Assembly: GCA_022824665.1 (NCBI GenBank)
Contig: JAJDZL010000014.1
Coordinates: forward strand, 1 to 51,676
From: Gammaproteobacteria bacterium
GTDB lineage: Bacteria > Pseudomonadota > Gammaproteobacteria > Arenicellales > JAJDZL01
Reading direction: 5' to 3'
DNA length: 51,676 nucleotides
The position numbers were made by a program, and so were the translations under genes. The notes below the pieces were generated by a model that was not told the origin of the DNA, did no database searches, and saw only the letters and a list, made by a program, of their open reading frames with translations. Below, piece after piece: positions 4,440 to 51,676 of this stretch. Numbering within the stretch: position 1 is the stretch's first letter; each line of letters starts with the position of its first letter.

Positions 4440-4488
4440 AAATTATTCTCCAGACAATTGTTGAGTTTTGATAATGTTGAATACAGTT

Positions 4489-11539: not shown

Positions 11540-11554
11540 TTTGCCTGAAGCCGA

Positions 11555-12580: not shown

Positions 12581-12622
12581 AATATTGGGATTGGCTCCGA
12601 AATCTGAGTTGAGACGGAATAA

Positions 12623-13249: not shown

Positions 13250-13308
13250 CGAGTTCAGTCAGCACACATGACCGGTTAATTGTCCGTCGATTGAAAGTTC
13301 CGGACAGC

Positions 13309-14604: not shown

Positions 14605-14789
14605 TCTGGACTCGATTGGCCTGATTAATGTGATGAACAATCCAAACGGATTATAGTGTTCACCCAGCGCAACATAGACCTCAGACCAGGTGCGCAGCGA
14701 CGGAATAGTCTGTTCGACATCGTTTGGCTGTGAAACAGAATCATAAATCAAATAACATTAGCGCATCTTTCGAAACTTGGATCATAAAA

Positions 14790-15650: not shown

Positions 15651-15669
15651 ATCAAGGCTGCGGGCGACT

Positions 15670-16110
15670 TCACGGCCATTTTCGGGTCGGCTGTGAGAGT
15701 GAAGTCCATGCGCGGATGCCGCCGACAGCATCATAAACCTGACTGTACCCCAATCGATCGGCAAGAAAGGTGCTGATCACCTTGGAGCGGTTACCGACAT
15801 CACAAATAATCGCAAGCGGCTTATCAGCCGTTGCCACTTCATTGAGTTTGCTGAGCCACGCATAAACATCGTAGTTGCCGTTGCGGTCAAAAAAAGTCAT
15901 CAGGTGACTTTCAGGTATGACGCCTGTCGCGCGCCACTCCTCAGGTGTACGCACATCGATCACGGGTACACCCTGCTCAATCAACTGCTGCAGTTCAGCC
16001 GGTGTGGCCTTGAGTGAATTTCCAAAGGCGGGACTTGCAGTGCTGAAAAGAAGCAGCAGCACCACTTTCCAGGCTGTCGAGAGCCTACTTTCGAAGCACG
16101 CTTTTTTCAT
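15670..16110 (-). CDS. Rhodanese-domain sulfurtransferase-like protein with signal peptide
   Basis: Active-site loop CDVGNRS (CX4R) and an N-terminal hydrophobic signal. The start is uncertain (16110 or 16140), and either one overlaps the stop of the upstream gene. Confidence 0.7.
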   Translation of the reverse strand: MKKACFESRLSTAWKVVLLLLFSTASPAFGNSLKATPAELQQLIEQGVPVIDVRTPEEWRATGVIPESHLMTFFDRNGNYDVYAWLSKLNEVATADKPLAIICDVGNRSKVISTFLADRLGYSQVYDAVGGIRAWTSLSQPTRKWP

Positions 16111-29847: not shown

Positions 29848-30578
29848 GTCAGCAGTATGTCCTTGGCGCGATTGATTCTGGCTGCCAGCCACGTGGAGCC
29901 ACCGCGGTCAGGGTGATTTCTCTGCATCAAAGTGCGGTGGGCTTCAATGATGTCCTTTTCGGTAGCTGATTCATCCAGCCCTAAAATCTGCAGTGCTTCA
30001 TCACGGGTCATCTCGTCGGGATCAGCACCGGGGGCATCATGCCCGGCGTGTTGACGAACGTACTCCTCCCAATCATCGGTTCGCATGCGGTCGAGATAGG
30101 TTTCGAGAATCGATGCTGACTGCGGGTCTTTTTGGCGGTAAACCTGCAACAGCTGAGCGAGCTGATTGATGTCGAGATCAGCCAGCGATTGCCCCTTGAA
30201 ATCACCGGCAAGCACGGTGCCCTCGATTGTTCCACTGTCGTGGTCCAGGATCATCTTCAGGAACTTTGTTTTTACATCGGAAGTCTGTCCTGGTTTGGAC
30301 CCGGGTACCGGACCGCCCTGCCAGGACTTAAACATGCTATAGGCACTTCGCAGCATGATAATGCGTTGAATCCACGGAACCGCCGCGGCTGCCAAAGCAA
30401 ATATTGCCGGCAGTTTACCGGTCAGAATCAGCGCCAGCAAGATTCCAGCCCCACCGTAGAGGAGTGCAATTTTGAAATATTTCTGACGGTTCAGGCGATT
30501 GGCCTTGTTGCCAATCTTGCTGACGATCCACATCAGTCCGATCACAAATGCGAGAATCAGAAAAAAGCGCACGAACAT
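29844..30578 (-). CDS. Membrane-anchored J-domain (DnaJ-like) protein
   Basis: 244-aa ORF with two N-terminal TM segments and a C-terminal J domain carrying the HPD motif (MQRNHPDRGG). Confidence 0.8.
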   Translation of the reverse strand: MFVRFFLILAFVIGLMWIVSKIGNKANRLNRQKYFKIALLYGGAGILLALILTGKLPAIFALAAAAVPWIQRIIMLRSAYSMFKSWQGGPVPGSKPGQTSDVKTKFLKMILDHDSGTIEGTVLAGDFKGQSLADLDINQLAQLLQVYRQKDPQSASILETYLDRMRTDDWEEYVRQHAGHDAPGADPDEMTRDEALQILGLDESATEKDIIEAHRTLMQRNHPDRGGSTWLAARINRAKDILLT

Positions 30579-40200: not shown

Positions 40201-40383
40201 GTGTTCCAGTGCTGCCAGGTGGGCCTTGACGACCCCGTAGACTCCATCCCGGTCGGTCAGTGCGATGGCTCTTAGACCTAGCTCGGCCGCCCTGCCCACA
40301 TATTGTTCGGGAAAGCTCGCGCCTTCAAGGAATGAGTAGTTGCTCTTGCACCACAAGGGGGTATATAGAACAGGGGGAGGCAT
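37282..40383 (-). CDS. dnaE2: Error-prone DNA polymerase III alpha-like subunit
   Basis: About 1033 aa with a PHP-domain N-terminus (YTPLWCKSNYSFLEGAS). It is the last gene of the imuA-imuB-dnaE2 cassette. The ATG at 40383 lies 2 nt after the imuB stop. Confidence 0.9.
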   Translation of the reverse strand: MPPPVLYTPLWCKSNYSFLEGASFPEQYVGRAAELGLRAIALTDRDGVYGVVKAHLAALEHNIHLIIGSELTISEPDWPTFSVVLLAQNSTGYANLCKLITIGRRRCEKGKSTVMFQELCLHARGLYALWPPQNHAILNEYPTDDIFDMMKQAFGARLFIMVCRHREPRDPLLEIQSRKTAKKYGIRTVAALETLYHCTSQRPVQDLISCIRLKRSFTTCENLLKPNALHKLIGPGDFIRMFADDLPSVEATEQIAENCSFRLDELRYVYPDEPNDNGMTVAESLREATLSGALKRYSGNIPQAVSRQLERELKLIEELRYGSYFLTMQRIVNWCKQQNILCQGRGSAANSAVCFCLGITNIDPVSMDLLFERFLSRERNEPPDIDLDIEHERREEVIQHVYSNYGRDYAAMVAVVIRYRSRSALRDVGAVLELPELELQRLSKQINSHAQVQETDFVKAGIDPSIHKYRLLMTLANSIIDFPRHLSIHPGGFVFSVGNIAEMVPVENTTMPNRTVIQWEKDDIQAMKIFKVDLLGLGALTQLHRCFDMISHHRGIELDMSSIPKDDAQVFAMLHKADTTGVFQIESRAQMSMLPRLKPEKWYDLVVQIAIVRPGPISGGMVHPYLRRRSGEEPVTYPHPSLVSVLGKTLGIPIFQEQVIKLAMVAADYQPGEADQLRRDMAAWRRADRLERHREKLIQRMMAKGIAQKFAEQVFDQIRGFGEYGFPESHSASFALIAYAAAWLKCHYPAEFACSLLNSQPMGFYSPSTIIEDARRHGVRIRPVDLRFSQRDCTLEPCSESVGSYAMRVGLHYVKGISDKDLQAIEAISSDFQSVQDFTHKTGVSKAAVRKLAEAGALRGLSANRRTALWEAHGVSAQQDLVTTPKHPVEFETLSAEQSTAWDYQSTGVSSRGHMLMHYREQLHARGLPSARTVSQMPDGCRVRYVGAVICRQRPASASSVVFMTLEDETGFVNAVFWPQCFERYSTLAKTLSLLGIEGKLQVANNVVHLIVDHVWEPVDLLLWNKFKSRNFH

Positions 40384-40385
40384 GG

Positions 40386-41864
40386 TTACTGGATAAATCC
40401 CTGTGCATACCACGCGCGGCTGTTTTTGTCATAAAAAATCCATTGTGCATCGCCTGAGCCGGTTTCCACGAAATAATCATTACGCTGCACACTGTTCGTT
40501 CGCCACCAGAAGCCGGATGTTGTATAGGGCCCGAGAATTCGCTGCGCTGCGGTTTGTTCTGGCGTCGGTACGCGACGCGGCTGATCCAAAAAGCGGCGCA
40601 TCATGGAAGTGTGAACCTGCTGCCCCGGTGTGCTGGCTTGCAGCTGGTCAAAGTCCTCCCATTCAAAGGCGTCATGCGGCAGGTGCGCCTTGTGACATTT
40701 TGCCTTGAGAACCCGGCCGGTGCCGAATTCTGCAAGTACGCGGGCGATGGCGCGATTGGCCTTTAAAATGCTCTCATCAGACTTGACCAGAGCCGGGTGA
40801 AGGTTAAGCTGAGGGTCGGGCAATGCTCCGGGGATAAGGTGAACTGTCAGACCCGTGATACCTTCATCAAGTTTGATTGTGTGACAACGAAGCCGCACCA
40901 GGTCAGTGAGCGTTGGCATCGCCAGGGTCGGCTTGGCCGCTTGTATTTTCTCATCAAAAGTGCCGCCATAATCCCTGGCAAGGCGAATGCATATTGCGCT
41001 GACCCCCTGTCCCTGTAATTCGGTTTTCATCCTTTCCAGCAGGGGCGCGGACAACTTTACAATGACGTTGACAAGGCGTTCTGCATCATTTTCCGTATGC
41101 TCAAATTCCGCCCGGGCTGCATAAGGTTCCGGGAACTTGATGCCGCGCACCTGACCATCGCGTTCCTTTGCTTTTCGTACCAGATCAAACATCGGCTCAG
41201 CGAATCGGGAACGCACCTCCCAGTCGGGTAGCGCCATGAGGTCGCCGACGGTGAGAATGTTCAGCTTTTCGAGCTCTCGAAGCGGTCTTGCGGTCAGGTC
41301 GAGTTTTTTAAGCGGTGTCGAGCAGGCTGCATTGTGTTCGATTTCAACAGTTGAAAAAAGTGTGACACCTTTCGCTAAGGCGGCACTCGTGCGGGTGCCA
41401 AAGCGGGTAAAGCCGATGACAATGGCTGTTTGAAGGTGCTGTTCTTTCAGCAGGGCATCTTGCAGGCGCTGTCCCCAGGCGCAAAGGTCGGGCTCCAGGC
41501 GCGTCATGCCACTGACATCAAGGTAATAAGCACCGAAAAGTTCAGCAACAGGCTCGACAGCCGGGCTGAACAGACCAAGCTGTGTAATGATTCGCCTGTG
41601 AATCTGGTTGATCTGCCCTGAATGCGGGCAGGCTGCGTGCAACTGGGGACAAAGACCAATGGCATTGGCATAAGACAGTCCGGGATAAATGCCCTTTGCT
41701 GCAGCCCGCTCATCAACCGCCATCACGATTGCGCGGCTGTCACTGCGGTCAACCAGCGCAACAGGCGCCCGGAAATCCTGGGGCAGATTGTGAAGTGACA
41801 GTTGCAGCAGAAAATCCGGCACGTAGACACAGGCAATTCGGTTTGTTTGCGGCGTATGGGTCAT
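40386..41864 (-). CDS. imuB: Y-family polymerase-like protein ImuB
   Basis: About 492 aa with N-terminus MTHTPQTNRIACVYVPDFLLQ, typical of ImuB. The ATG at 41864 lies 17 nt downstream of the imuA stop, and the longer ORF to 42032 overlaps imuA. Confidence 0.8.
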   Translation of the reverse strand: MTHTPQTNRIACVYVPDFLLQLSLHNLPQDFRAPVALVDRSDSRAIVMAVDERAAAKGIYPGLSYANAIGLCPQLHAACPHSGQINQIHRRIITQLGLFSPAVEPVAELFGAYYLDVSGMTRLEPDLCAWGQRLQDALLKEQHLQTAIVIGFTRFGTRTSAALAKGVTLFSTVEIEHNAACSTPLKKLDLTARPLRELEKLNILTVGDLMALPDWEVRSRFAEPMFDLVRKAKERDGQVRGIKFPEPYAARAEFEHTENDAERLVNVIVKLSAPLLERMKTELQGQGVSAICIRLARDYGGTFDEKIQAAKPTLAMPTLTDLVRLRCHTIKLDEGITGLTVHLIPGALPDPQLNLHPALVKSDESILKANRAIARVLAEFGTGRVLKAKCHKAHLPHDAFEWEDFDQLQASTPGQQVHTSMMRRFLDQPRRVPTPEQTAAQRILGPYTTSGFWWRTNSVQRNDYFVETGSGDAQWIFYDKNSRAWYAQGFIQ

Positions 41865-41880
41865 CGTGATACTTCGCGCA

Positions 41881-42495
41881 TCAGTAGTATCCCCCGATAC
41901 CGGCAAGGTGTGTGCTCCAGTGCCAGTTACCCCCGCGCCGCTTGTCGCGCAGAACATGGATTTCGCACAGAAATTCATCAGCCCTGATACGTTTTCGAGT
42001 CGTGTGGGCGCGCAGTGAAACGAGCGATCCAAGCGAGGGCGCGCTAAGCGTTTTATGCGTCAGGAAAAGCGCGCAGGCATCGTGTTTGCGGGCGAGCGCG
42101 TGAAGTTGCGAGAGCCTGGCGGCTGCCAGCGTATGCCTTTCTCCAAGGTCGAGTATGACCAGTCGAAACGCGCCGCTTCGCAACAGTATCTCAGCCACTC
42201 TCCCGGTGTGCTGCATGTCGAGCATGCGCGACACCGGCAGATTGTCAAGATCAATGCCGTTTTTTTCAGCGTCAGGCGGATAGAAAACACTGTCGAGTGT
42301 TCCGACCCAGGCTGCGCACTCGCCGAGTGCCTGTGCTTCCCGTACCAGTAAAAATGCAAAGCTCAGTGCCGCAATTGGCCGGGGCTCTGAGACTTCGACC
42401 AGTCTGCCGGATACCTCCTGCAGGTTCCACTTTGGCTGTTCAGTCAGGATTGGCTGAGGCAGCTCAGAGAGTGTTTGCAGCGCAAGCTCAGCCAT
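41881..42495 (-). CDS. imuA: SulA/RecA-fold-like protein ImuA
   Basis: 204-aa ORF in the conserved position between lexA and imuB. It overlaps the lexA stop by 8 nt. Confidence 0.75.
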   Translation of the reverse strand: MAELALQTLSELPQPILTEQPKWNLQEVSGRLVEVSEPRPIAALSFAFLLVREAQALGECAAWVGTLDSVFYPPDAEKNGIDLDNLPVSRMLDMQHTGRVAEILLRSGAFRLVILDLGERHTLAAARLSQLHALARKHDACALFLTHKTLSAPSLGSLVSLRAHTTRKRIRADEFLCEIHVLRDKRRGGNWHWSTHLAGIGGYY

Positions 42496-43123
42496 TCAAT
42501 TGTTCTCCGATCAGGCTGATGCCTTCGAGGTAGCGCCGCACCTCAATTACCTTACCGACAATCGTGAGATCTTCGGGGGCGGGTGAAAGAATTGGGTAGG
42601 CGGTGTTCCGAGGCTGCAGCTGTACCTGGCCGTTGGCGCGGCGAAACTCCTTGACAGTTGTTTCGCCGTCGACCATTGCAACGACAATGTCGCCTGGATG
42701 AATTTCAGAGCTGGTGCGCACCAGCACGATATCTCCATCCATAATGCCTGCATCGGTCATGCTGTCGCCACTGACACGCAGTCCGAAGATGGTGTGCTCT
42801 TCAGTACTGGACTGAACCGGGATGTATCCTTCAATATCCTCAATGGCAATGTTAAAAGGTCCTGCCGGAACACGGCCAATGATGGGCGCCAGCTGGCTTG
42901 AGTGAATAGCTGCGGGCAGCCTGTAGCCGCGGGATTTACCGGGCACCTTGATCAGGCGGCCTTCCTTGACCAGCGCATCAAGGTGGCTTTTTGCAGACTG
43001 CACTGCCCGCATATGAAAGGCCGCCTGCACCTCACGCACGGTTGGCGGCTCACCGTCCAGGAGTCGTTTGCGCACAAACTGGTAAATTCGGTTGCGTGTT
43101 ACGCCAGGTTTTGTATATGCCAT
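42488..43123 (-). CDS. lexA: LexA repressor (cassette-associated)
   Basis: About 211 aa from the ATG at 43123, with an N-terminal wHTH, an Ala-Gly cleavage site (GRVPAGPF), catalytic Ser (SGDSM) and Lys (TTVKEF). Confidence 0.88.
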   Translation of the reverse strand: MAYTKPGVTRNRIYQFVRKRLLDGEPPTVREVQAAFHMRAVQSAKSHLDALVKEGRLIKVPGKSRGYRLPAAIHSSQLAPIIGRVPAGPFNIAIEDIEGYIPVQSSTEEHTIFGLRVSGDSMTDAGIMDGDIVLVRTSSEIHPGDIVVAMVDGETTVKEFRRANGQVQLQPRNTAYPILSPAPEDLTIVGKVIEVRRYLEGISLIGEQLNG

Positions 43124-43149
43124 ATTCGTGAACCAGGTTTGTTGTATTT

Positions 43150-43165
43150 CAGAATATGATAACAG
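43150..43165 (-). promoter_or_regulatory. Candidate degenerate SOS box upstream of lexA
   Basis: The minus strand reads CTGTTATCATATTCTG against the consensus CTGT-N8-ACAG. The right half-site has two mismatches. It lies about 27 nt upstream of the lexA ATG. Confidence 0.25.
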
Positions 43166-43288
43166 ACAAAAGTATGTTTTAAAAATTTTGTTTTGCGCGT
43201 GCTGACAGGCATCGGGTGACGCCTGGATCAATGCTGATAAGGGTGGGGTGAGTATTCGAGCGCCTGTTGGCGCTGTGGTACAAGCGGA

Positions 43289-43640
43289 TTAAGCCAGCCA
43301 GTGTTCCACTGGATTTGAAAGAAATCGGCTGACGCTGATGCCCTGGTCACCAATCAGCAGGACGCGCTCTGGGTTGAAAGCGGCAGAAAAAGCGCTGATG
43401 CCGGGGAGAGTGTTTCGGGTACGGCCACTTTTGACTTCGATTGCAACCAGGCTTGATCGCGTTTCGACGATGAAATCGACTTCCCGGTTATTTTCCCGCC
43501 AGTAGCTTAGCTTGATTTTTCCGCCTGCTGCACAGCATTGGCCAGATGTGCGCCAACGGCTGATTCCACCAGGCGTCCCCTGAATGAAGGATCATTCAGT
43601 ATGGTTGTCAACCATTCTATACAAGCCCCATGGGCTAAAA
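43289..43640 (-). pseudogene. Truncated, frameshifted remnant of an AAA+/DUF4143-type ATPase (C-terminal about 115 aa only)
   Basis: The minus strand translates as ..ILNDPSFRGRLVESAVGAHLANAVQQAEK. A frameshift in an A5 run (T-run at 43516-43520) is then followed by IKLSYWRENNREVDFIVETRSSLVAIEVKSGRT...HWLA and a stop. This matches the C-terminal E-V-D-F...E-V-K module of the three intact ATPases downstream. No P-loop region is present. Confidence 0.7.
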
Positions 43641-43680
43641 TAAATCCAGGTCAGTGAAAGTTACAGGGGGGAGACAGGTT

Positions 43681-44293: not shown

Positions 44294-44797
44294 TTACTGG
44301 ACCAATTCGACCATGTAATCGACGGCTGCCTTGACCTCCTCATCGGATAGCAGCAGATTGCCACCTTTGGGCGGCATGATTCCTGTAGAGCCTTGGAATC
44401 CCTGAATGGAGTTGGTATAAAGCACTTCCAGACCTTTTTCGATTCTTGGCTGCCAGTTGTTTACATCGCCTGGTTTTGGAGCACCCGTGACACCGGTCGC
44501 GTGGCAAATAAAGCAAGCCTTGTCATAAACGCTTTTTCCGAGGTCACCTTCGGCGGTAGCAACCTGAACCGGCTGCTCGGTCGCAGCAGGCTCGTCAATT
44601 TCTCCAACATTCAGTGTGCCGACCGGTTCGGTTCGGCTTGCAATGACGCGCTGTGTATACTCTTCCGATTGCGCGTTGAGTTTGTCATCAATTGAACCAC
44701 CGATTACAACTCCTAAAGCGATCAAAACTACTGTCAAGACCACCAGGAAAGCAACCATCTTGGCAAATGTCCTTGCAAACTGACTGTCAGTCATCAT
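44294..44797 (-). CDS. Membrane-anchored cytochrome c5-family protein
   Basis: 167-aa ORF with an N-terminal TM helix, a CFICH haem-binding motif and a distal Met region. Confidence 0.8.
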   Translation of the reverse strand: MMTDSQFARTFAKMVAFLVVLTVVLIALGVVIGGSIDDKLNAQSEEYTQRVIASRTEPVGTLNVGEIDEPAATEQPVQVATAEGDLGKSVYDKACFICHATGVTGAPKPGDVNNWQPRIEKGLEVLYTNSIQGFQGSTGIMPPKGGNLLLSDEEVKAAVDYMVELVQ

Positions 44798-45349
44798 GGT
44801 ATGTTGTCTACCCTATTTCTTGAATTGTGATTGCTGTCAGCTGGAATCAGGACAGCATATTTGTTTGAATCCCGACGGGCGAAGAGATATTCAAACTGAT
44901 TCGTTGAATAATACCACATCGTCAACCGCGCAATATTTTACTACTTGCAGGTGGGGATTGGTCAGGCGATTTGCAGACTGTACCGATGATACGGAAGTTA
45001 CCTGGTTTCAAGTGGAGCGATCGAGTTGTTCAACGTATAGAACAATTTGTGTCACTCACGCTGCACATGTTGCATAAAATGCAACCGCTTCATCCGAATT
45101 TAGTGACCTCAATTGGCAGCTAAATCAGTGCATCAACCTCATCCATGATGGATAATGCTCGACCACTCGGATTAAGCGGGAAGAACCAAAAACAATACAC
45201 GGATACGTTGGAGCGGGGCGTGGTGTTTATGTTGCGCGACGAAAGACAAGTGCGGACCAAATTTTCGACGAAAGGCAGACTTGCCTGGATGTAACGGCTC
45301 TGCGCAGGATTGCAATAGCCTTTGATCAATATCAGATAGGACGCCGATT

Positions 45350-46687
45350 ATGAGCTCTATTCGATTGAATTACTTTCTTGACTCTGTAGCTGACGCAGGG
45401 ATGGAATTATTGCGCGGGCGCATTTATTCCAACCGGGGCAGGCGCAAGTCGGCAGCAAAACTTTGTCATGAATTACTGTCGACGCTGGGTGAAGCGTCGG
45501 GCACAGCCATCGCACGTGATATTGTTGACCGATTCAGTGCTATGGGTGAGGCCGAGCGGTTGGCTTTTTTTATCGCATTGAAAGAACAGTTTGATGTCGA
45601 CCGTAAGTCGCTGCTTAGTGCCGCCAAGAATTTTTGTGATCAAAAGGACGATGCATCGCTGGCCGAGCTGGCCAGGCTGGTTGAATCTGAGCGGCTGGAG
45701 CTCTTTCGACGAATCAATATGGCACCTGGCGGAACCCGCACGATTGTTGAGATGCGTCGTCAAGTGCTGCGGCTGAGCAAGGACCACCCGGAATTGCGGG
45801 CGATTGACGCTGATTTAAAACACCTGTTATCGTCCTGGTTCAATCGCGGATTTCTTGAGATGGAAAGAATTGACTGGGAGACTCCGGCAATCATTCTCGA
45901 AAAACTGATTGAGAATGAATCGGTCCACGAAATGCAGGGCTGGAACGATTTACGCGGCCGGCTTGCAGCTGACCGAAGATGCTTTGCTTTTTTCCATCGT
46001 GCGCTGCCCAATGAGCCCTTGATATTTGTTGAGGTGGCGCTTGTCAATGGTCTATCCGAATCAATCAGTCCGATCATTGATGATCAGCGGGAGATTTCCA
46101 ATCCGTTTAAGGCGGATACCGCAATTTTTTATTCAATTAATAACTGCTTGGAAGGATTGCAGGGCATCTCATTCGGCAATTTTCTAATCAAGCAAGTGGT
46201 TCAGGATTTGTCCCAGGAGTTTCCCAATCTCAAGCGGTATGCGACCCTGTCTCCGATTCCTGGATTCTGCAAGTGGCTAAAGAGTGCATTAAACGATCCG
46301 CAAAAACATGCAATCTCAAGGAGTCAGGTTAACACGCTTGCCGCCCTGGATTCGAATGCATGGCTGAAGGATCCTGAACTTGTCAAATCATTGAAGCCCC
46401 TGCTACTGAGGCTGGCAGCGCATTACTTTATCAATGTAAAGAGAAAGATCAGACCACTGGATCCGGTCGCACGATTTCACCTTAGAAACGGTGCAAAACT
46501 GGAACGCGTTAACTGGCTTGGAGATTGTTCACGAAACGGTATGCGGCAATCTGCTGGCATGCTGGCAAACTACGTGTATTCTCCAGATACCATTGTCGAG
46601 AATCATGAGCGTTATGTGAAAGACAATGTGCTGGCGGTTTCCAGGGATGTCATTGATTTGATACCGCGCAGATTGCGTAAGACCTGA
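45350..46687 (+). CDS. Malonyl-CoA decarboxylase family protein
   Basis: 445-aa ORF. The segment FYSINNCLEGLQGISFGNFLIKQVVQDL closely parallels the conserved MCD catalytic motif. Confidence 0.8.
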   Translation: MSSIRLNYFLDSVADAGMELLRGRIYSNRGRRKSAAKLCHELLSTLGEASGTAIARDIVDRFSAMGEAERLAFFIALKEQFDVDRKSLLSAAKNFCDQKDDASLAELARLVESERLELFRRINMAPGGTRTIVEMRRQVLRLSKDHPELRAIDADLKHLLSSWFNRGFLEMERIDWETPAIILEKLIENESVHEMQGWNDLRGRLAADRRCFAFFHRALPNEPLIFVEVALVNGLSESISPIIDDQREISNPFKADTAIFYSINNCLEGLQGISFGNFLIKQVVQDLSQEFPNLKRYATLSPIPGFCKWLKSALNDPQKHAISRSQVNTLAALDSNAWLKDPELVKSLKPLLLRLAAHYFINVKRKIRPLDPVARFHLRNGAKLERVNWLGDCSRNGMRQSAGMLANYVYSPDTIVENHERYVKDNVLAVSRDVIDLIPRRLRKT

Positions 46688-46712
46688 TCAATTCTGGATT
46701 ATCGGACGTACA

Positions 46713-46740
46713 CCCGCGTTGCGATTCGCGGGCATTTGCT
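46713..46740 (+). terminator. Possible terminator after the malonyl-CoA decarboxylase gene
   Basis: Stem CCCGCG (46713-18) / CGCGGG (46727-32) with an 8-nt loop, followed by CATTTGCT. The T-tract is weak. Confidence 0.35.
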
Positions 46741-47012
46741 ACGAGCCAATCGACAAGGGGTTGATGGGTACCCAGACACGGTGAATCTTGTAGTGCGCAA
46801 AGCTGAAAGCGTTGCTGCAGTCTTATGGATTTTTTGTGGTGACATTGAGTCTTTGTTTTGACCATTATTCAGCATGACCACAAAAACCATGCCGTTCATT
46901 CGACAATCAATCATGTAATTTCCGTTGGGATCATGATCTGATTCGTTCCAATCAAAAGCAACCCGGTTCATTGAATATTTTGTCGATTTTGAGTGGTAAT
47001 ATGACCCTATTG

Positions 47013-47061
47013 ATATAAATACAGTCATTATTAGTGACTGTATTTATATAATTACAGTCAC
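47013..47061 (+). promoter_or_regulatory. Operator-like palindrome plus third half-site, overlapping a perfect -10 box, upstream of ATPase 1
   Basis: ATATAAATACAGTCA (47013-27) and TGACTGTATTTATAT (47035-49) form perfect 15-bp arms with a 7-nt spacer. A third TACAGTCA lies at 47053-60. TATAAT at 47047-52 is 10 nt from the ATG, and no Shine-Dalgarno sequence is present. Confidence 0.6.
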
Positions 47062-47062
47062 T

Positions 47063-48220
47063 ATGAAAAGTGCTACCTACATACCTCAAACACAACTTCG
47101 ACACCTTAAGTCTGTTGTTGCTGCTGGCAAAGTTGTCGTCCTTTATGGACCCCGCCGGGTTGGAAAGACTACCTTGATCCAGCGTTATGTTCAACAGTAC
47201 GACCCGCACGCACTGGTGGTAACTGGCGAAGACATATTTGTCCGCGAGTTTCTGGAAAGCCAATCAATTTCGAAGCTAAAGGAATTTGTTGGAGCTCATC
47301 GAACACTCATCGTAGACGAAGCGCAGCATGTGAGAGAAGTCGGATTGAACCTGAAGCTACTGATCGATCATGTTGAAGGGCTGCGAATCATCGCCACCGG
47401 TTCATCGTCTTTCGATATAGCAAATCTTACCGGAGAACCCTTGACGGGACGCAGACACACACTTATTCTCCTTCCGCTCGCTCAATTTGAGCTTCAGAAC
47501 ATTGAAAAGACTCACGAAACAAGAGCCAATCTCGAAACCCGTATCATTTACGGCTCATACCCGGAAGTCATACTTATGGATTCGAATCAAGAACGTCAAA
47601 TTTACCTAAGGGAATTGATCACGTCGTACCTGTTTAAGGATGTTCTTCAAATTGAAGGGGTTAGATATACAGACAAATTGCTGCGGCTGCTTCAACTGGT
47701 GGCGTTTCAGATTGGTCAGGAAGTCTCGCTGGCTGAATTAGGTACTAAACTTGGGATGAGCAAGAATACGGTAGAACGATATCTCGATCTTTTGGAGAAG
47801 GCGTATGTCCTTTACAGTCGATTTGGGTTTAGTCGGAATTTACGTAAAGAAATCACAAAAAGCCGCCGGTACTATTTTTACGACAATGGGGTGCGAAATG
47901 GATTGATAAATAATTTCAATCCCATCGCGCTACGAGACGACGTGGGTTCTTTGTGGGAAAACTATGTCTGTGTTGAGCGAATGAAGTGTAATTTGTACTT
48001 TAAGCGTTTAGTAGACAGCTACTTCTGGCGAACACATGACCGACAGGAGATTGATTTGATAGAAGAGCGGGGCGGACACTTACATGCGACAGAACTAAAG
48101 TGGTCTTCCAAGTCCTCAAAAAGCCCACCACGCGGTTGGCGTCAAGCTTATCCTGACAGTTCGTTTCAGGTTATCAATCCAGATAACTATCTTGAATTTG
48201 TTGGCGTATCTGAACACTGA
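47063..48220 (+). CDS. AAA+ ATPase, AAA_14/DUF4143 (COG1373-type), paralogue 1
   Basis: 385-aa ORF with Walker A GPRRVGKTT, Walker B LIVDEAQ, RYYFYDNGV, and C-terminal EIDLIEE..ATELKWS. Confidence 0.85.
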   Translation: MKSATYIPQTQLRHLKSVVAAGKVVVLYGPRRVGKTTLIQRYVQQYDPHALVVTGEDIFVREFLESQSISKLKEFVGAHRTLIVDEAQHVREVGLNLKLLIDHVEGLRIIATGSSSFDIANLTGEPLTGRRHTLILLPLAQFELQNIEKTHETRANLETRIIYGSYPEVILMDSNQERQIYLRELITSYLFKDVLQIEGVRYTDKLLRLLQLVAFQIGQEVSLAELGTKLGMSKNTVERYLDLLEKAYVLYSRFGFSRNLRKEITKSRRYYFYDNGVRNGLINNFNPIALRDDVGSLWENYVCVERMKCNLYFKRLVDSYFWRTHDRQEIDLIEERGGHLHATELKWSSKSSKSPPRGWRQAYPDSSFQVINPDNYLEFVGVSEH

Positions 48221-48249
48221 GCAGAAAGAACAAGCTAGACTCATAAAGT

Positions 48250-48287
48250 CGAATATGTTAGAATATTCGGAGATAACCTCCGAATAA
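48250..48287 (+). promoter_or_regulatory. Repeat set CGAATAT / ATATTCG / CGAATAA upstream of ATPase 2
   Basis: A 7-bp inverted repeat (48250-56 / 48263-69) has a 6-nt spacer. An overlapping hairpin CGGAG-ATAAC-CTCCG lies at 48268-82. A third direct copy sits at 48281-87, 31 nt from the first. Confidence 0.45.
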
Positions 48288-48312
48288 TCACACATAATCA
48301 CGTAAATAACGA

Positions 48313-49476
48313 GTGATAAGCCGAACTGATTACATTAGTCGCTTGAATGTCGCGACCGCCAGATCACCGATTACTGCATTGCTGGGACCGAGGCAATCTG
48401 GTAAAACAACACTAGCTCGTCAATTTACAGAAGGACGTCAAGCCAGCTTTTTTGATCTCGAGTACGAAGCCGACCTTCGCACACTCGATAATCCAGAATT
48501 GGTGCTTGGCAGTTTGCGCGGTCTCGTTGTTCTTGACGAAATTCAATTGCTGCCTGGTCTATTTCAATATTTACGCGTTCTGGTCGACCGGGAAGTTCGC
48601 CAGGCACGTTTTCTAATATTGGGAAGTGCTTCACCGGAGTTGATTCGCGGTGTCTCGGAGTCGCTGGCCGGGCGAATTGAATTTGTTGACATTTCAGGTT
48701 TCGATGTGCGGGAAACGGGTAGTGAGATGCTTCTTACGCTGTGGCGTCGAGGCGGATTTCCACCGTCTTTCTTGGCAACATCCGAAACTGATAGTTTCGC
48801 GTGGAGAGATGGATTTATTCGTACTTTTCTAGAGCGCGATATTCCACAGCTTGGCATTAGAATTCCAACCGTTGCGATGCGCCGATTCTGGACGATGCTG
48901 GCTCACTGGCATGGGCAAATCTGGAACGCTTCAGAACTGGGCCGAGCACTGAGTGTATCAGACAAAACGGCTCGCAGTTATCTTGATCTACTGACTGGCG
49001 CATATATGGTACGCCAGCTGCAACCGTGGTATGTGAATGTTTCCAAACGACAAGTCAAGGCACCAAAAGTGTATTTTCGCGACACAGGACTACTGCACAC
49101 ACTTCTCGGCGTGACCGGCGAGCGGGAATTGTTGGGCAATCCACGCGTTGGTGCATCCTGGGAAGGATTCATTGTTGAGCAGATTCTATCTGTATTAAAT
49201 CAGCCACCGGCTTGGTTTTGGGCTGCTCACCGGGGCGGAGAAGTTGATTTGTTGGTGCAGTATGAAGGCAGGTGGCTGGGTTTCGAGATTAAATTTAATG
49301 AGGCACCGAAGATTTCAAAGTTGCTGCGCGATTCAGCTCAGCTGCTCAAGCTTGATCATCTTTTTGTTGTTTGTCTCGCAAATCGGGCCTATGCAGTCAG
49401 TGAAAACATCAGTATTTTGCCAGCATACAAAATTCACGAATTAGGCTCGCATATTGGAGAGCTGTTGGACAATTGA
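48313..49476 (+). CDS. AAA+ ATPase, AAA_14/DUF4143 (COG1373-type), paralogue 2
   Basis: 387-aa ORF with a GTG start, Walker A GPRQSGKTT, Walker B VVLDEIQ, KVYFRDTGL, and C-terminal EVDLLVQ..GFEIKFN. Confidence 0.85.
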   Translation: MISRTDYISRLNVATARSPITALLGPRQSGKTTLARQFTEGRQASFFDLEYEADLRTLDNPELVLGSLRGLVVLDEIQLLPGLFQYLRVLVDREVRQARFLILGSASPELIRGVSESLAGRIEFVDISGFDVRETGSEMLLTLWRRGGFPPSFLATSETDSFAWRDGFIRTFLERDIPQLGIRIPTVAMRRFWTMLAHWHGQIWNASELGRALSVSDKTARSYLDLLTGAYMVRQLQPWYVNVSKRQVKAPKVYFRDTGLLHTLLGVTGERELLGNPRVGASWEGFIVEQILSVLNQPPAWFWAAHRGGEVDLLVQYEGRWLGFEIKFNEAPKISKLLRDSAQLLKLDHLFVVCLANRAYAVSENISILPAYKIHELGSHIGELLDN

Positions 49477-49784
49477 ACAACTTGTCCGAACGTTACCGGA
49501 TGCAGAATTTCCGTCAATTTAATTTCGGGCCACATAACGGAAAAATAACTCCAATTTTGGCTCTTGAGAATTCGGTATTTCGCCAGCTGGGGTCTTCTGG
49601 CTACAGATCCGCTGAACCGTTATATGGCCCGCTGCCTGATTTTCTCCATTTTATTAATCCCATTGTTCAGGTCAAACCTGTGTAACCGACAGAGGCATTT
49701 GTTCGAAGTAAAACGGGAATCGTGCAATCGTGTAGCGATAGATTGCGGGTGAAGGCTCGGATTTGAGGTTAGTCTCTCAATATA

Positions 49785-49832
49785 ATGCGCATATAAATGT
49801 TAGTGATAGCATATATATGCGCATAAAAATGT
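49785..49832 (+). promoter_or_regulatory. Two 16-nt direct repeats, each with an ATGCGCAT palindrome, upstream of ATPase 3
   Basis: ATGCGCATATAAATGT (49785-800) and ATGCGCATAAAAATGT (49817-32) match at 15 of 16 positions and are spaced 32 nt apart. TATAAT lies at 49781-86. Confidence 0.5.
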
Positions 49833-49895
49833 AAAATCAATAACTGCAGATACAAAGAACGCATTTAACCACTAATGTCTGATTTTTGAAATGCA

Positions 49896-51206
49896 ATGCT
49901 TTTGCGCTTAAAAACCGACGATATTCACAAATGGATCAATCAATCGAGCCGTAAGCCTCTGTTGCTAGATGGTGCTCGACAGGTCGGCAAAACCTACTTG
50001 ATTGCTGAAGTGGTTGGAAAACAACATTTTCGACGTGTGCACCGGCTTGATTTTCGATTGGACTCGACGCTTGCGGACATTTTTGCAGAATCCCTTGACC
50101 CGAGAAAAATAGTTGAGTTAATCGAGCTACGACTCAATTCACCAATTGACTTGAGTCAAGACCTGATATTTTTTGATGAGATCGGAGATTGTCAAAATGC
50201 GGTTGATTCACTGAAGTATTTTTCGGAAGAACTTCCGTTTGCCTATGTGTGTGCAACCGGTTCCAATATAGGTTTGTTGAGGTCGTTTCCTGTCGGTTCG
50301 GTTCATTACCTGGAACTATTTCCTTTATGTTTTGAAGAATTCTTGCAGGCCAAAGGGCAATTTAAGCTTTTGGAATTTTTCCTGGAACGCCGCAACGACA
50401 AAACAGTCTTTGACCAACTTTGGCAGCTGTTGCTTGAATATTACTTCGTCGGGGGTATGCCAGAAGCTGTTTCACATTGGTTTGATGAACGAAAAAAACT
50501 CATAGAACGGGTGAACAGGGTAATGCAGGTTCATCGCGAGTTAACTGTCGGTTACCGCCAAGATTTCGGAAAGTATGCAGATAAACTGGACGCGTTGAAT
50601 ATTGACGCAGTCTTTTCAGCTGTGCCGCGGCAATTGGCGGCTTATCAGGACAATTCTGTCCAACGGTTCAAATTCAATGAAGTCGTAAAAAACAAGCAAA
50701 GGTACCAATACTTGCAGGGACCAATTGACTGGCTGGAAAAAAGCAAATTGGTACATAAGTGCTATCCGATTAGAAGCAGGCCAACCGTTCCGCTGCAATC
50801 ACAAATTAAGACAAATATCTTCAAGTTGTACCTTTTTGATGTCGGGTTGCTTGGGCATCTGCTCCAAATTCCGTTTCAACACCAGGTGTCCCAGAGCTAC
50901 CAGTACAAGGGTTACCTTGCGGAAAATTTTGTGCAAATGGAGCTTGCAGCCCGGGATAGCCGTTCGACGTATTCGTGGCAAATGGCCAGAGCTGAAATCG
51001 AGTTTATTCATCAAGGTCGCGATGGCAAAATCATTCCAGTGGAAGTGAAGAGCGGGTCACGCACCCGGGCTCGTAGTTTGCGTTCCTACATTGAACGATA
51101 TGATCCTTCTCGCGCCATCATACTTGCCGGAAGACAACGTGATCGCGCAAGTGGTCCAGTGGAAATTTGGCCGCTATATGACGCCCAGTTTATTTGCGAG
51201 TTGTAG
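49896..51206 (+). CDS. AAA+ ATPase, AAA_14/DUF4143 (COG1373-type), paralogue 3
   Basis: 436-aa ORF with Walker A GARQVGKTY, Walker B IFFDEIG, KLYLFDVGL, and C-terminal EIEFIHQ..PVEVKSG. Confidence 0.85.
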   Translation: MLLRLKTDDIHKWINQSSRKPLLLDGARQVGKTYLIAEVVGKQHFRRVHRLDFRLDSTLADIFAESLDPRKIVELIELRLNSPIDLSQDLIFFDEIGDCQNAVDSLKYFSEELPFAYVCATGSNIGLLRSFPVGSVHYLELFPLCFEEFLQAKGQFKLLEFFLERRNDKTVFDQLWQLLLEYYFVGGMPEAVSHWFDERKKLIERVNRVMQVHRELTVGYRQDFGKYADKLDALNIDAVFSAVPRQLAAYQDNSVQRFKFNEVVKNKQRYQYLQGPIDWLEKSKLVHKCYPIRSRPTVPLQSQIKTNIFKLYLFDVGLLGHLLQIPFQHQVSQSYQYKGYLAENFVQMELAARDSRSTYSWQMARAEIEFIHQGRDGKIIPVEVKSGSRTRARSLRSYIERYDPSRAIILAGRQRDRASGPVEIWPLYDAQFICEL

Positions 51207-51345
51207 TGCCATGTCATTCATCTAATTTGTTGATTACTGAAGACTCTGAATCGGTTTCAGTAAGCGTAGAATTTGTGAGGTAGGGTATCATCGCATATCG
51301 TCGGTGATCCGATACAGCAGCAAACAACGCTTCAACTGTTATTCA

Positions 51346-51676
51346 ATGGAAGACTACAAACTACACACGCCTTCAGGCAAGCCGCGCTCGCGCACCATCC
51401 CGATTGAATTTGAAGGGGTTCTCGGTAAGCATAATGCCATCACAGATGTCGATGGCGTATGTGTTGGTTACTGCACGCTGATTTCAGGTCAGGGTGCGAG
51501 AATCGTTGGTCAGGGTCCGGTCCGCACCGGTGTTACCGCAATCTTGCCTCGACCACGCGAAAAGTTGCATATACCGTGCAATGCGGGTTATTTCAGCTTC
51601 AACGGAAATGGTGAAATGACCGGAACGCATTGGATAGAAGAGTCAGGGTCGCTGCAATGGCCGATTGTTCTGACTA
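51346..51676 (+). CDS. P1/S58 (DmpA/BapA-like) aminopeptidase family protein, 5-prime partial
   Basis: An open frame runs from the ATG at 51346 to the window edge (MEDYKLHTPSG..ITDVDGVCVGY..VRTGVTAILPR..NGNGEMTGT). It is absent from the ORF track because no stop codon falls inside the window. Confidence 0.55.
   Translation, partial: MEDYKLHTPSGKPRSRTIPIEFEGVLGKHNAITDVDGVCVGYCTLISGQGARIVGQGPVRTGVTAILPRPREKLHIPCNAGYFSFNGNGEMTGTHWIEESGSLQWPIVLT

What the first reader, a model, noticed from the sequence alone, without database searches (positions are those of the whole stretch)
47063..51206. Tandem stack of three mutually divergent AAA+/DUF4143 ATPases with a nuclease-like C-terminal motif
Three consecutive same-strand genes (385, 387 and 436 aa) share one architecture:
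- P-loop: GPRRVGKTT / GPRQSGKTT / GARQVGKTY
- Walker B: LIVDEAQ / VVLDEIQ / IFFDEIG
- Central [KR]xY[FL]xDxG motif: RYYFYDNGV / KVYFRDTGL / KLYLFDVGL
- C-terminal E-[IV]-[DE]-[LF] ... E-[LIV]-K pair: EIDLIEE..ATELKWS / EVDLLVQ..GFEIKFN / EIEFIHQ..PVEVKSG

The C-terminal pair resembles a PD-(D/E)xK nuclease core. By eye the three proteins are highly divergent from each other, so they are not recent duplicates. Spot GC counts also differ: 31/60 for the line starting at 48601 in paralogue 2, and 23/60 for the line starting at 50101 in paralogue 3.

The AAA_14/DUF4143 (COG1373-type) family is widespread but has no experimentally defined role that I know of. An ATPase joined to a DNA-binding module and a nuclease-like module is the usual build of conflict or defence proteins.

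Three different subfamily members sit in about 4.2 kb between housekeeping-looking genes (malonyl-CoA decarboxylase and a DmpA-like peptidase). A decayed fourth copy lies 3.4 kb upstream. This looks like an accretion hotspot or multi-component accessory system rather than a metabolic operon.
Basis: partly seen in the sequence, partly recalled or inferred. Interest (0 to 1): 0.7.

Follow-up and report, generated by a model that had tools for sequence, protein, structure and literature searches.

The report
Three stacked PDC-S01 ATPase-nuclease genes
Three intact but very different copies, plus one decayed copy, of a widespread ATPase-nuclease gene already listed as an untested phage-defence candidate sit side by side in a marine gammaproteobacterial chromosome, each apparently under its own private on/off switch; this is a well-documented example of a known family, not a new system.

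Summary
Three same-strand ORFs (385, 387 and 436 aa), all quoted motifs, both GC spot counts and the decayed fourth copy (minus strand, 43292-43650) are present.

All three are AAA_14 + DUF4143 proteins. PADLOC already lists this family as the single-gene candidate PDC-S01, and the nuclease-like C-terminus was classified as PD-(D/E)xK in 2012. Neither the family nor the defence idea is new.

Findings added here:
- AlphaFold models show an ORC/Cdc6/STAND-like ATPase, lid and winged helix, followed by an alpha-beta3-alpha-beta nuclease core. Walker A/B and D/E...ExK residues are invariant within subfamilies.
- Each gene carries its own palindromic repeat over its promoter. It travels with the gene into other genomes and its arms covary, which suggests autorepression.
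- The genes are independent units, not one system. A3-type genes occur alone elsewhere. A2-A3-DmpA is shared with one related MAG; A1 is not.
- Divergence across the block is mosaic (dS 1.09, 0.17 and 0.2-0.4), and paralogues cluster far above background (7/16 versus 2/80 loci).

The defence function remains unproven: the one published PDC-S01 test was not among those reported as protective.

Verdict: new members of a known kind, of modest interest.

The parts
47063..48220 (+). A1: 385-aa AAA_14 + winged helix + DUF4143/PD-(D/E)xK protein (PADLOC PDC-S01, subfamily model PDLC04789)
   Evidence: Pfam AAA_14 1.9e-22 and DUF4143 1.4e-38. PADLOC 5.6e-145 over the full length. AF2 pLDDT 83.6. P-loop at nt 47147-47173, Walker B at 47306-47326, helix Glu (LWENY) at 47951-47965, EID at 48047-48067, ELK at 48086-48106. 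K35, D85, E86, E299 and D331 are invariant, and E344 and K346 are kept in at least 90%, of 117 sequences.
47002..47064 (+). A1 promoter/operator: two tandem 30-nt units, 33 bp apart. Unit 2 is the palindrome TGACTGTA-N10-TACAGTCA, which encloses a TATAAT and ends 2 nt before the ATG (leaderless-type layout).
   Evidence: Repeats reported. The same TGAC...(-10-like TAAAAT)...GTCA layout sits 0-5 nt before the ATG of A1 orthologues in unrelated contexts, and the arms covary. Nucleotide homology to orthologous loci starts 35-70 nt upstream of the ATG and ends at the ORF end. The exact pattern is expected 0.02 times per window.
48313..49476 (+). A2: 387-aa AAA_14 + DUF4143 protein (PDC-S01, model PDLC04790)
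   Evidence: Pfam AAA_14 5.9e-23 and DUF4143 6.4e-45. PADLOC 1.1e-80. 82% aa identity to the gene at the same position in L108. dN/dS 0.10.
48236..48299 (+). A2 promoter/operator: sigma-70-like TAGACT-17-TAGAAT overlapped by the palindromes CGAATAT-N6-ATATTCG and TTCGGAG-N5-CTCCGAA
   Evidence: The element is unique in the window, with 0.00 expected. It is conserved in L108 with a compensatory change (TCGGAG/CTCCGA to TCGGAA/TTCCGA) and marks the point where homology to L108 begins. It is partly conserved in L086.
49896..51206 (+). A3: 436-aa AAA_14 + DUF4143 protein (PDC-S01, model PDLC04786), with E in place of D in nuclease motif II
   Evidence: Pfam AAA_14 6.5e-20 and DUF4143 2.6e-22. PADLOC 1.4e-110. 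AF2 pLDDT 89.2. K32, D94, E95, E343, E369 and K385 are invariant in 109 sequences. 94% aa identity to P0121 in L108.
49778..49832 (+). A3 upstream repeats: two copies of ATGCGCATA(T/A)AAATGT, 32 bp apart, each with the 8-bp palindrome ATGCGCAT
   Evidence: The same pair, 32-33 bp apart, lies upstream of A3 orthologues in L108, L109 and L110, two of which are in a different genomic context. Exact copies occur only here in the window.
43292..43650 (-). Decayed fourth copy: the frameshifted C-terminal (nuclease-core) part of a DUF4143 gene, between lexA and fur. The ATPase and winged-helix parts are missing.
   Evidence: Hit by subfamily HMMs (E 1.4e-4). Pfam DUF4143 3.3e-7, 30.6 bits, above the gathering cutoff. 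Translations.
45350..46687 (+). Upstream flank: malonyl-CoA decarboxylase
   Evidence: Pfam MCD and MCD_N. The best relatives are Arenicellales MAGs at only 59-65% aa identity, without shared synteny.
51304..51676 (+). Downstream flank: 5' part of a Peptidase_S58 (DmpA-type) gene, which runs off the window
   Evidence: ORF in L083. Pfam Peptidase_S58 on the L108 orthologue. 83% aa and about 90% nt identity to L108.

Best explanation
The block is three independent, intact single-gene loci of the AAA_14/DUF4143 family (COG1373; PADLOC candidate PDC-S01). They come from three distant subfamilies. They have accumulated, together with a fourth copy now decayed, in a recombination-prone stretch of an Arenicellales-like gammaproteobacterial chromosome.

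Shown or well supported:
- Each protein has an ORC/Cdc6/STAND-type ATPase with lid and winged helix, joined to a C-terminal restriction-endonuclease-like (PD-(D/E)xK) domain.
- The ATPase and nuclease catalytic residues are intact and under purifying selection.

Inferred:
- Each gene carries its own palindromic or repeated site over its promoter. The encoded protein's winged helix most likely binds this site and represses its own, potentially toxic, expression. For A1-type genes the transcript is probably leaderless.
- On an unknown trigger, probably foreign DNA or a phage product, ATP-driven oligomerisation would activate DNA cleavage.
- On this reading the three genes are stand-alone conflict or defence nucleases with different specificities. 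They are stacked by horizontal transfer and homologous recombination, not because they work together.
For: Identity: Pfam and PADLOC give full-length hits for all three.

Fold:
- The AF2 models are confident.
- The best PDB matches are archaeal AAA+ SSO1545 (2fna, TMq 0.48), Apaf-1, CED-4, Orc1/Cdc6, RuvB, NLR resistosomes, Avs3 and MalT.
- The C-terminus has alpha-beta3-alpha-beta order. The helix Glu, D/E and ExK are invariant across subfamilies and are kept even in the remnant.

Selection: dN/dS is 0.06-0.17.

Private operators:
- Repeats lie at each promoter and are unique in the window.
- They are retained by orthologues in unrelated contexts, with compensatory arm changes.
- Palindromes are enriched upstream of family genes: 12/34 versus 3/48 neighbouring genes, p = 0.001. 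A second set gave 10/39.
- The transferred unit is the promoter plus the ORF only.

Independence:
- A3-type genes occur alone in L109 and L110.
- A1 occurs next to a truncated A2-like gene in L086, or with none in L089 and L090.

Accretion and exchange:
- A remnant copy is present.
- GC3 is 0.44-0.47 against 0.52-0.59 for neighbours.
- A1 is 73% identical to a Latescibacteria protein, while MCD's best hit is 65%.
- Compared with L108, homology starts at the A2 operator, and dS is 1.09 for A2, 0.17 for A3 and 0.22-0.37 for DmpA.
- A second family member lies nearby in 7/16 family loci against 2/80 MCD loci, p = 3e-5.
- The family occurs on 541 plasmids and about 80 IMG/VR contigs.
Against: - No member of the family has a demonstrated function.
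- In the one published test found, a PDC-S01 gene in E. coli B was challenged with T4, T5 and T7. It was not among the four candidates reported to protect.
- The window holds no other defence or mobile genes. A3-type genes sit stably between housekeeping genes.
- A1- and A3-type proteins are unusually conserved for arms-race genes: 70-85% and 55-94% identity across wide taxa, with a constant length of 436 aa for A3.
- Operator binding by the gene's own product is inferred only from position, privacy and covariation. A host factor or an RNA or DNA structural role is not excluded.
- The nuclease fold was not confirmed by a significant structural match. The full-length Foldseek search is dominated by the ATPase, and a profile of the C-terminal domain hit only Cas4 4r5q at E 0.36.
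- The loci used for the clustering statistic are partly related to one another, so they are not fully independent.
Confidence: 0.6

Rival explanations
1. The three genes are subunits of one multi-component system. A hetero-oligomeric AAA+ ring or a sensor/effector relay would need all three.
For: The genes are on the same strand and closely spaced, with 92 nt between A1 and A2. An A2-like gene lies within 3.2 kb of the three closest A1 orthologues. A2-A3 adjacency is kept in L108. AAA+ proteins commonly form mixed rings.
Against: Each gene has its own promoter and operator. The orientation and spacing of A1-like and A2-like genes vary: tandem, divergent, or convergent with two unrelated genes between them. 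In L086 the A2-like partner is a 103-aa stump while A1 is intact. A3-type genes are solitary in L109 and L110. L108 has A2-A3 without A1. PADLOC models the family as single-gene. The three genes have very different divergence histories.
Confidence: 0.08
2. They are selfish, self-regulated gene cassettes that persist through horizontal transfer. This could work by post-segregational or addiction-like toxicity, or by nuclease-stimulated recombination or homing next to resident paralogues. No net benefit to the host is required.
For: The compact transferable unit is the promoter/operator plus the ORF. Conservation across phyla is very high, consistent with frequent transfer. Paralogues cluster together. 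Divergence is mosaic, with the synteny break exactly at the A2 operator. Truncated copies are frequent. The family is carried on plasmids and virus-like contigs. The one published phage test gave no reported protection.
Against: There are no terminal repeats, target-site duplications, transposase or integrase. No antitoxin-like partner is present. Strong purifying selection and syntenic retention between genomes also fit a host-beneficial gene. No empty-site/filled-site pair was found to show precise insertion.
Confidence: 0.17
3. They are cellular DNA-transaction or regulatory proteins rather than conflict genes. Candidates are ATP-dependent transcription regulators or repair/recombination nucleases of the ORC/RuvB/MalT type.
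For: The fold matches ORC/Cdc6, RuvB, clamp loaders and MalT. Each gene has a specific operator-like site. The flanks are housekeeping genes. Sequence and length conservation are high. The remnant lies beside the lexA-imuA-imuB-dnaE2 SOS cassette.
Against: The operators are private to each gene, and no regulon-like copies occur in the window. Distribution is patchy and multi-copy, with decay, plasmid carriage and cross-phylum transfer. Published work finds the genes embedded in known defence systems and classes them as defence candidates. The neighbours of orthologues are not conserved.
Confidence: 0.15

Closest known systems
PADLOC phage-defence candidate PDC-S01 (= Pfam AAA_14 PF13173 + DUF4143 PF13635; COG1373)
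   Same: All three proteins match PDC-S01 models over their full length (E 1e-80 to 6e-145) and both Pfam domains above the gathering cutoffs. The published description, an ATPase fused to a PD-(D/E)xK domain in a single gene, fits.
   Different: Nothing structural differs. The particular points here are three distant subfamily members (models PDLC04789, PDLC04790 and PDLC04786) in tandem with a fourth decayed copy, and the private upstream operators, which I did not find described in the papers I read. PDC-S01 itself is unvalidated.
PD-(D/E)xK phosphodiesterase superfamily (Steczkiewicz et al. 2012, entry 100 'DUF4143'); Cas4/RecB-like D...ExK core
   Same: A helix Glu, a D/E at the end of beta-2 and ExK on beta-3, with predicted alpha-beta3-alpha-beta order. 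The weak profile match lies on the Cas4 motif VDLV...VEIK.
   Different: There is no significant sequence or structure match to a solved PD-(D/E)xK protein (E 0.36). A3-type proteins use Glu instead of Asp in motif II. Activity is untested.
Archaeal AAA+ ATPase SSO1545 (PDB 2fna; Pfam ATPase_2 type) and Orc1/Cdc6 initiators
   Same: SSO1545 is the best structural match over nearly the whole A1 model (359 aligned columns, TMq 0.48). Like Orc1/Cdc6, these proteins combine an AAA+ domain, a lid and a winged helix. From my own knowledge, archaeal orc1/cdc6 genes also have inverted-repeat boxes beside them.
   Different: Sequence identity is only 13-14%. Orc1/Cdc6 has no nuclease domain. Nothing suggests an origin function here.
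STAND-type antiviral ATPases (Avs) and NLR/Apaf-1/CED-4
   Same: The NBD-helical-winged-helix module is recovered by Foldseek (Apaf-1, CED-4, NRC4, Sr35 and Avs3). Avs proteins likewise combine this module with a nuclease effector.
   Different: These proteins have no C-terminal repeat (TPR/LRR/WD40) sensor domain. The nuclease is C-terminal rather than N-terminal. They are only 385-436 aa long.
McrBC-type NTP-dependent restriction (AAA+ motor plus PD-(D/E)xK nuclease)
   Same: The working logic is the same: an oligomerising AAA+ NTPase, a DNA-reading domain and a PD-(D/E)xK cleavage domain.
   Different: McrB belongs to a different AAA+ clade (AAA_5, a GTPase). The McrC nuclease is a separate subunit. 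No HMM similarity was found.

Membership tests
Pfam AAA_14 (PF13173) | HMM score above the gathering cutoff (27 bits) | tested here: met
   80.0, 81.7 and 71.9 bits for A1, A2 and A3.
Pfam DUF4143 (PF13635) | HMM score above the gathering cutoff (28.1 bits) | tested here: met
   132.6, 153.2 and 79.7 bits for A1, A2 and A3. The remnant scores 30.6 bits.
PADLOC PDC-S01 | Full-length match to a PDC-S01 protein model; single-gene system | tested here: met
   E 5.6e-145, 1.1e-80 and 1.4e-110, covering almost the whole model for A1 and A3. Family members occur as solitary genes elsewhere.
AAA+ ATPase | Conserved Walker A Lys, Walker B Asp-Glu, and sensor/Arg-finger positions | tested here: met
   A1 family: G29, G34, K35, T36, D85, E86, G113, S116 and R130 are invariant. 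A3 family: G26, G31, K32, D94, E95, S123 and N124 are invariant. The assignment of R130 as the Arg finger is inferred.
AAA+ ATPase | ATP hydrolysis and oligomerisation | not testable with these tools
   Needs biochemistry.
PD-(D/E)xK nuclease superfamily | Catalytic D/E ... (D/E)xK on consecutive beta strands, plus a helix Glu | tested here: met
   A1 has E299, D331, E344 and K346. A3 has E343, E369, E383 and K385. These are invariant or at least 90% conserved, and the helix Glu and ExK are invariant across subfamilies and the remnant.
PD-(D/E)xK nuclease superfamily | alpha-beta-beta-beta-alpha-beta core fold with a significant match to solved members | tested here: inconclusive
   The order of predicted secondary-structure elements fits. 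The full-length Foldseek search is dominated by the ATPase; VC1899 (1xmx) appears only at rank 27 with TM 0.17. The domain profile hits only Cas4 4r5q at E 0.36.
PD-(D/E)xK nuclease superfamily | Metal-dependent nucleic-acid cleavage | not testable with these tools
   Needs a nuclease assay.
Anti-phage defence system | Protection against phage or foreign DNA on expression | not testable with these tools
   In the literature, one PDC-S01 representative was not among the protective candidates against T4, T5 and T7.
Anti-phage defence system | Enrichment next to known defence or mobile genes | tested here: inconclusive
   The window has none besides the family itself. Related loci show scattered neighbours: McrBC, GmrSD_C, HipBA, DruA and IS elements within 0.3-8 kb. 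No statistical test was possible.
Multi-gene system (A1+A2+A3) | The same genes co-occur in a conserved order or operon across genomes | tested here: not met
   Only A2-A3 recurs, in one related MAG. A1 is absent there. A3-type genes are solitary in L109 and L110. The arrangements of A1-like and A2-like genes vary.
STAND NTPase (Avs/NLR type) | NBD-HD-WHD module plus a C-terminal repeat sensor domain | tested here: not met
   The module is recovered structurally, but there is no repeat domain. The protein ends with the nuclease domain.
Transposon or integrative mobile element | Terminal repeats, target duplication, and a transposase or integrase | tested here: not met
   Homology to orthologous loci covers only the promoter and ORF. 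No tRNA was found, and no integrase or transposase among the ORFs scanned.

The most novel reading that the evidence does not exclude
PDC-S01 genes may be autonomous 'promoter-operator-ORF' cassettes. On this reading, each protein's winged helix recognises a private palindrome that co-evolves with it, and A1-type genes are translated from leaderless mRNAs. That would let the cassette work in any host. The cassettes would accumulate next to one another because resident paralogues, or the nuclease's own cleavage at such sites, act as recombination anchors. Paralogue stacks would then be produced by a targeted capture mechanism rather than by passive defence-island accretion.
Probability: 0.12. 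Interest if true: 0.7.

Novelty: new member of a known kind. Interest (0 to 1): 0.35.

Why it matters
PDC-S01 is reported as the fourth most common 'defence' call across prokaryotes (PMC12988326), yet it has no validated function or mechanism.

This locus offers three intact, very different members with mapped candidate operators and catalytic residues. It also offers a natural comparison genome. That makes it a compact test bed for three questions:
- Are these ATPase-nucleases really defence genes?
- Are they self-repressed?
- Why do paralogues pile up next to each other?

The answers bear on how far automated 'defensome' counts that include PDC-S01 can be trusted.

Tried and rejected
- tblastn of A1-A3 against the window did not find the fourth copy. 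Subfamily HMMs and Pfam did.
- No MCD/DmpA 'empty site' was found. None of 80 MCD loci, the best being Arenicellales at 59-65% aa identity, carries DmpA, CobO, fur or cytochrome c nearby. MCD-DmpA adjacency is therefore not ancestral, and the proposed flank comparison cannot be made with this anchor.
- Exact-protein look-ups recovered only the source metagenome (short contigs L081-L083), so they gave no closely related strain for comparison.
- Phmmer against PDB sequences with A1 gave no hit. A profile of the C-terminal domain gave only Cas4 at E 0.36.
- Rfam found nothing credible in 44700-51676.
- The A2-A3 spacer (419 nt) has no conserved ORF and no family remnant.
- A LexA-box reading of the A1 palindrome was rejected. 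Its spacing is CTGT-N12-ACAG, not N8, and orthologues lack the CTGT.
- A terminator reading of the A1-A2 palindrome was rejected. It has no T tract, and the element is kept in L108, where no family gene lies upstream.
- A Shine-Dalgarno comparison with host genes was abandoned, because the mechanically called starts of other ORFs are unreliable.
- PHROGs has no family for these proteins. NCBIfam has none either.
- The first A3 homologue search timed out and was repeated.

Full report
**1. Observation**

The three ORFs exist exactly as described: A1 at 47063-48220 (385 aa), A2 at 48313-49476 (387 aa, GTG start) and A3 at 49896-51206 (436 aa), all on the + strand. Every quoted motif and both GC spot counts are correct.

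A1 and A2 share 26% identity. A3 is not significantly similar to either by BLASTP.

Upstream lies malonyl-CoA decarboxylase. Downstream lies a Peptidase_S58/DmpA-type gene that runs off the window.

The 'decayed fourth copy' is real:
- tblastn missed it, but subfamily HMMs found it and Pfam places it in DUF4143 above the gathering cutoff (E 3.3e-7, 30.6 bits).
- It lies on the minus strand at 43292-43591, between lexA and fur.
- It still reads REVDFIVE...VAIEVKSG. The preceding helix lies in another frame, and the whole ATPase and winged-helix part is missing.

**2. What the genes are**

All three carry Pfam AAA_14 plus DUF4143. They match three different models of the PADLOC candidate PDC-S01 over their full length (E 5.6e-145, 1.1e-80 and 1.4e-110). 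NCBIfam and PHROGs have no family for them.

- DUF4143/COG1373 is entry 100 in the 2012 PD-(D/E)xK census (PMC3424549).
- PDC-S01 is described as an ATPase fused to a PD-(D/E)xK domain. It is called the fourth most common defence call across prokaryotes, with repeated transfer between Archaea and Bacteria, and it is not validated (PMC12988326).
- One PDC-S01 gene was tested in E. coli B against T4, T5 and T7. It was not among the four candidates reported to protect.

The family is large. A single-sequence search with A1 finds 11,984 clusters at 50% identity with E up to 1e-3.

**3. Structure and catalytic residues**

The AlphaFold models are confident: A1 has pLDDT 83.6 and pTM 0.82, and A3 has 89.2 and 0.89.

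Foldseek against the PDB returns:
- the archaeal AAA+ protein SSO1545 as the best match (2fna; 359 aligned columns, TMq 0.48);
- then Apaf-1, CED-4, Orc1/Cdc6 and ORC subunits, RuvB, clamp loaders, MalT, plant NLR resistosomes and Avs3.

The N-terminal two-thirds is therefore an ORC/STAND-like ATPase, lid and winged-helix module. Pfam HTH_IclR and HTH_11 also hit A1 residues 204-247.

The C-terminal ~100 residues have the element order alpha, beta, beta, beta, alpha, beta. In alignments of 117 A1-type and 109 A3-type sequences, these residues are invariant or at least 90% conserved:
- the Walker A Lys and the Walker B Asp-Glu;
- a helix Glu (A1 E299, A3 E343);
- the motif-II acid (A1 D331, A3 E369);
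- ExK (A1 E344/K346, A3 E383/K385).

The helix Glu and ExK are invariant across subfamilies and in the remnant.

A significant structural match of the nuclease domain alone could not be obtained. The domain profile hits only Cas4 4r5q, on its VDL...VEIK motif, at E 0.36. The fold assignment therefore rests on motifs, topology and published classification.

dN/dS values of 0.06-0.17 show purifying selection on all three genes.

**4. A private operator for each gene (new here)**

Immediately upstream of each gene lies a distinct repeat:
- **A1:** two 30-nt units, 33 bp apart. The second is TGACTGTA-N10-TACAGTCA. It encloses TATAAT and ends 2 nt before the ATG.
- **A2:** CGAATAT/ATATTCG and TTCGGAG-N5-CTCCGAA, overlapping a TAGACT-17-TAGAAT promoter-like site.
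- **A3:** two copies of ATGCGCATA(T/A)AAATGT, 32 bp apart.

These sites are essentially unique in the window.

They travel with the genes:
- A1 orthologues at 67-85% identity, in unrelated contexts, keep TGAC...(TAAAAT-like hexamer)...GTCA 0-5 nt before the ATG. The arms covary: TGACT/AGTCA, TGACG/CGTCA, TGCC/GGCA and TGACCTAAT/ATTAGGTTA.
- A1-like genes at 50% identity keep the half-site as CAGTCAGT-ca-ACTGACTG, next to TATAAT-N6-ATG.
- The A2 site is kept in L108 with a compensatory change (TCGGAG/CTCCGA to TCGGAA/TTCCGA) and is partly kept in L086. More distant A2-like genes have different palindromes that abut the start codon.
- The A3 pair is kept in L108, L109 and L110.

Statistically:
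- 12 of 34 family genes have an upstream palindrome at p <= 0.05 against dinucleotide shuffles, compared with 3 of 48 neighbouring non-family genes (Fisher p = 0.001).
- An independent set of virus-contig relatives gives 10 of 39.

Nucleotide homology between A1 loci covers only 35-70 nt upstream plus the ORF.

I infer three things:
- The unit is 'promoter-operator-ORF'.
- The operator is bound by the gene's own winged helix, giving autorepression of a potentially toxic nuclease.
- A1-type mRNAs are leaderless, because the -10 hexamer lies about 6-10 nt before the ATG.

None of this is shown experimentally. A host factor or a structural role for the palindrome remains possible.

**5. Independent genes or one system?**

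- The closest A1 orthologues (85, 80 and 76% identity) sit between unrelated housekeeping genes. Each has an A2-like gene nearby, but the arrangements differ: convergent 3.2 kb away, divergent and adjacent, or as a 103-aa stump.
- A1 relatives at about 70% identity have no partner within 8 kb.
- A3 orthologues at 72-73% identity are solitary and syntenic in two other genomes.
- A related Arenicellales MAG (GCA_965243645.1, L108) has HipB-HipA, then A2' (82% aa), A3' (94% aa) and DmpA (83% aa), followed by cobalamin genes. It has no A1 and no MCD there.

A2-A3-DmpA is thus shared by two genomes and A1 is not. The three genes do not form an obligate set.

**6. Accretion and exchange**

The source is a metagenome (KELL22-1, SAMN22237346). 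The closest MCD relatives are Arenicellales MAGs at only 59-65% aa identity and without synteny. No MCD locus has DmpA nearby, so no empty site could be examined.

Signs of a dynamic locus:
- A remnant copy is present.
- GC3 is 0.44-0.47, against 0.52-0.59 in neighbours.
- A1 is 73% identical to a Latescibacteria protein, while MCD's best hit is 65%.
- Homology to L108 starts exactly at the A2 operator.
- Divergence from L108 is mosaic. A2 and the spacer are 63-85% nt identical (dS 1.09). The A3 ORF is 89-98% identical (dS 0.17). DmpA is 88-93% identical (dS 0.22-0.37).

Paralogue clusters recur elsewhere:
- a tandem triple in L102/L103;
- four family ORFs within 17 kb in L127;
- pairs in L084-L086, L092, L093, L108, L129 and L153.

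A second member lies within the fetched flanks in 7 of 16 non-redundant family loci, against 2 of 80 MCD-anchored loci (p = 3e-5). Some of these loci are related to one another, so they are not fully independent.

The family occurs on 541 PLSDB plasmids and on about 80 IMG/VR contigs.

The window itself otherwise holds only housekeeping genes. It has no tRNA, and no integrase or transposase among the ORFs scanned.

**7. Mechanism proposed**

- *Shown:* domain content, intact catalytic residues, purifying selection, private upstream repeats that covary, independence of the genes, and the mosaic history of the locus.
- *Inferred:* self-repression through the winged helix, ATP-driven oligomerisation that licenses the nuclease, DNA as the substrate, and a conflict or defence role with three specificities.

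The rivals are an obligate three-part system (unlikely), selfish self-regulated cassettes, and a cellular regulatory or repair role. They are weighed in the corresponding fields.

**8. Verdict**

The genes are new members of a known, abundant and still uncharacterised family.

The added value is the operator, autoregulation and leaderless hypothesis, together with the evidence that paralogues of this family cluster and recombine. Interest is modest (0.35).

Noticed in passing
window 37282-43231 (minus strand): A complete SOS mutagenesis cassette, lexA-imuA-imuB-dnaE2, lies directly next to the decayed DUF4143 copy. The ORFs are 247, 204, 548 and 1043 aa. The related contig shows Pfam IMS, LexA_DNA_bind and Peptidase_S24.
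   Followed up: partly
window 48413-48466; L081 and L083: The short-read assembly of the same metagenome breaks inside A2. Contig L081 ends at window 48466 and contig L083 starts at 48413, a 54-nt overlap. This is close to the point (about 48250-48329) where synteny with the related MAG L108 ends. It may reflect strain heterogeneity at the A1/A2 junction.
   Followed up: partly
L108 6548-8090: In the related MAG, a HipB/HipA toxin-antitoxin pair (HTH_3 plus Couple_hipA/HipA_C) occupies the position upstream of A2 that A1 holds in the window.
   Followed up: no
window 3497-3523: There is a second exact match to the A1 operator pattern TGACTG-N15-CAGTCA, against 0.02 expected per window. It lies inside the glutamine-synthetase-like ORF (3024-4439, minus strand) and has a GC-rich spacer with no -10-like hexamer. 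It is probably chance.
   Followed up: no
window 46688-47062: The 375-nt spacer between MCD and A1 has 41% GC. It holds a 109-aa minus-strand ORF (46699-47028) with no Pfam hit. Homology to other A1 loci starts only at 46992, so the rest of the spacer is unexplained.
   Followed up: partly
window 49477-49895: The 419-nt A2-A3 spacer has no conserved ORF, no Rfam hit and no family remnant. It nevertheless keeps well-conserved patches against L108, for example GTTCGAAGTA-AACGGGAATCGTGCAATCG.
   Followed up: partly
window 45350-46687 versus L008: MCD is only 59% identical to the MCD of the MAG whose A3 is 94% and DmpA 83% identical. In that genome MCD lies about 540 kb from the A2-A3-DmpA locus. 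Either MCD or the whole upstream segment of the window has a different history.
   Followed up: partly
L009 11371-12528 (minus strand): In another Arenicellales MAG, a different AAA_14/DUF4143 subfamily member (26% identical to A1 and A2) lies immediately downstream of MCD, convergent to it. The MCD-distal site is therefore occupied by a family member in a second lineage.
   Followed up: no
L127 (IMG/VR contig) 1-16771; L102/L103: There are further paralogue stacks. L127, a virus-labelled contig, has four same-strand family ORFs within 17 kb. L102/L103, from a metagenome, has three divergent members in tandem.
   Followed up: partly
L111, L131, L144, L159 (about 17-51 nt upstream of the estimated starts of the family genes): Very long perfect palindromes, with arms of 17-29 nt, lie upstream of distant family members on virus-labelled contigs. 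The one in L111 is flanked by A and T tracts, so it could instead be a bidirectional terminator.
   Followed up: no
window 28636-29892 and 6833-9214 (minus strand): Two large ORFs have little or no annotation. The 418-aa ORF has no Pfam hit at E up to 1e-5. The 793-aa ORF has only a short 2OG-Fe(II) oxygenase match.
   Followed up: no
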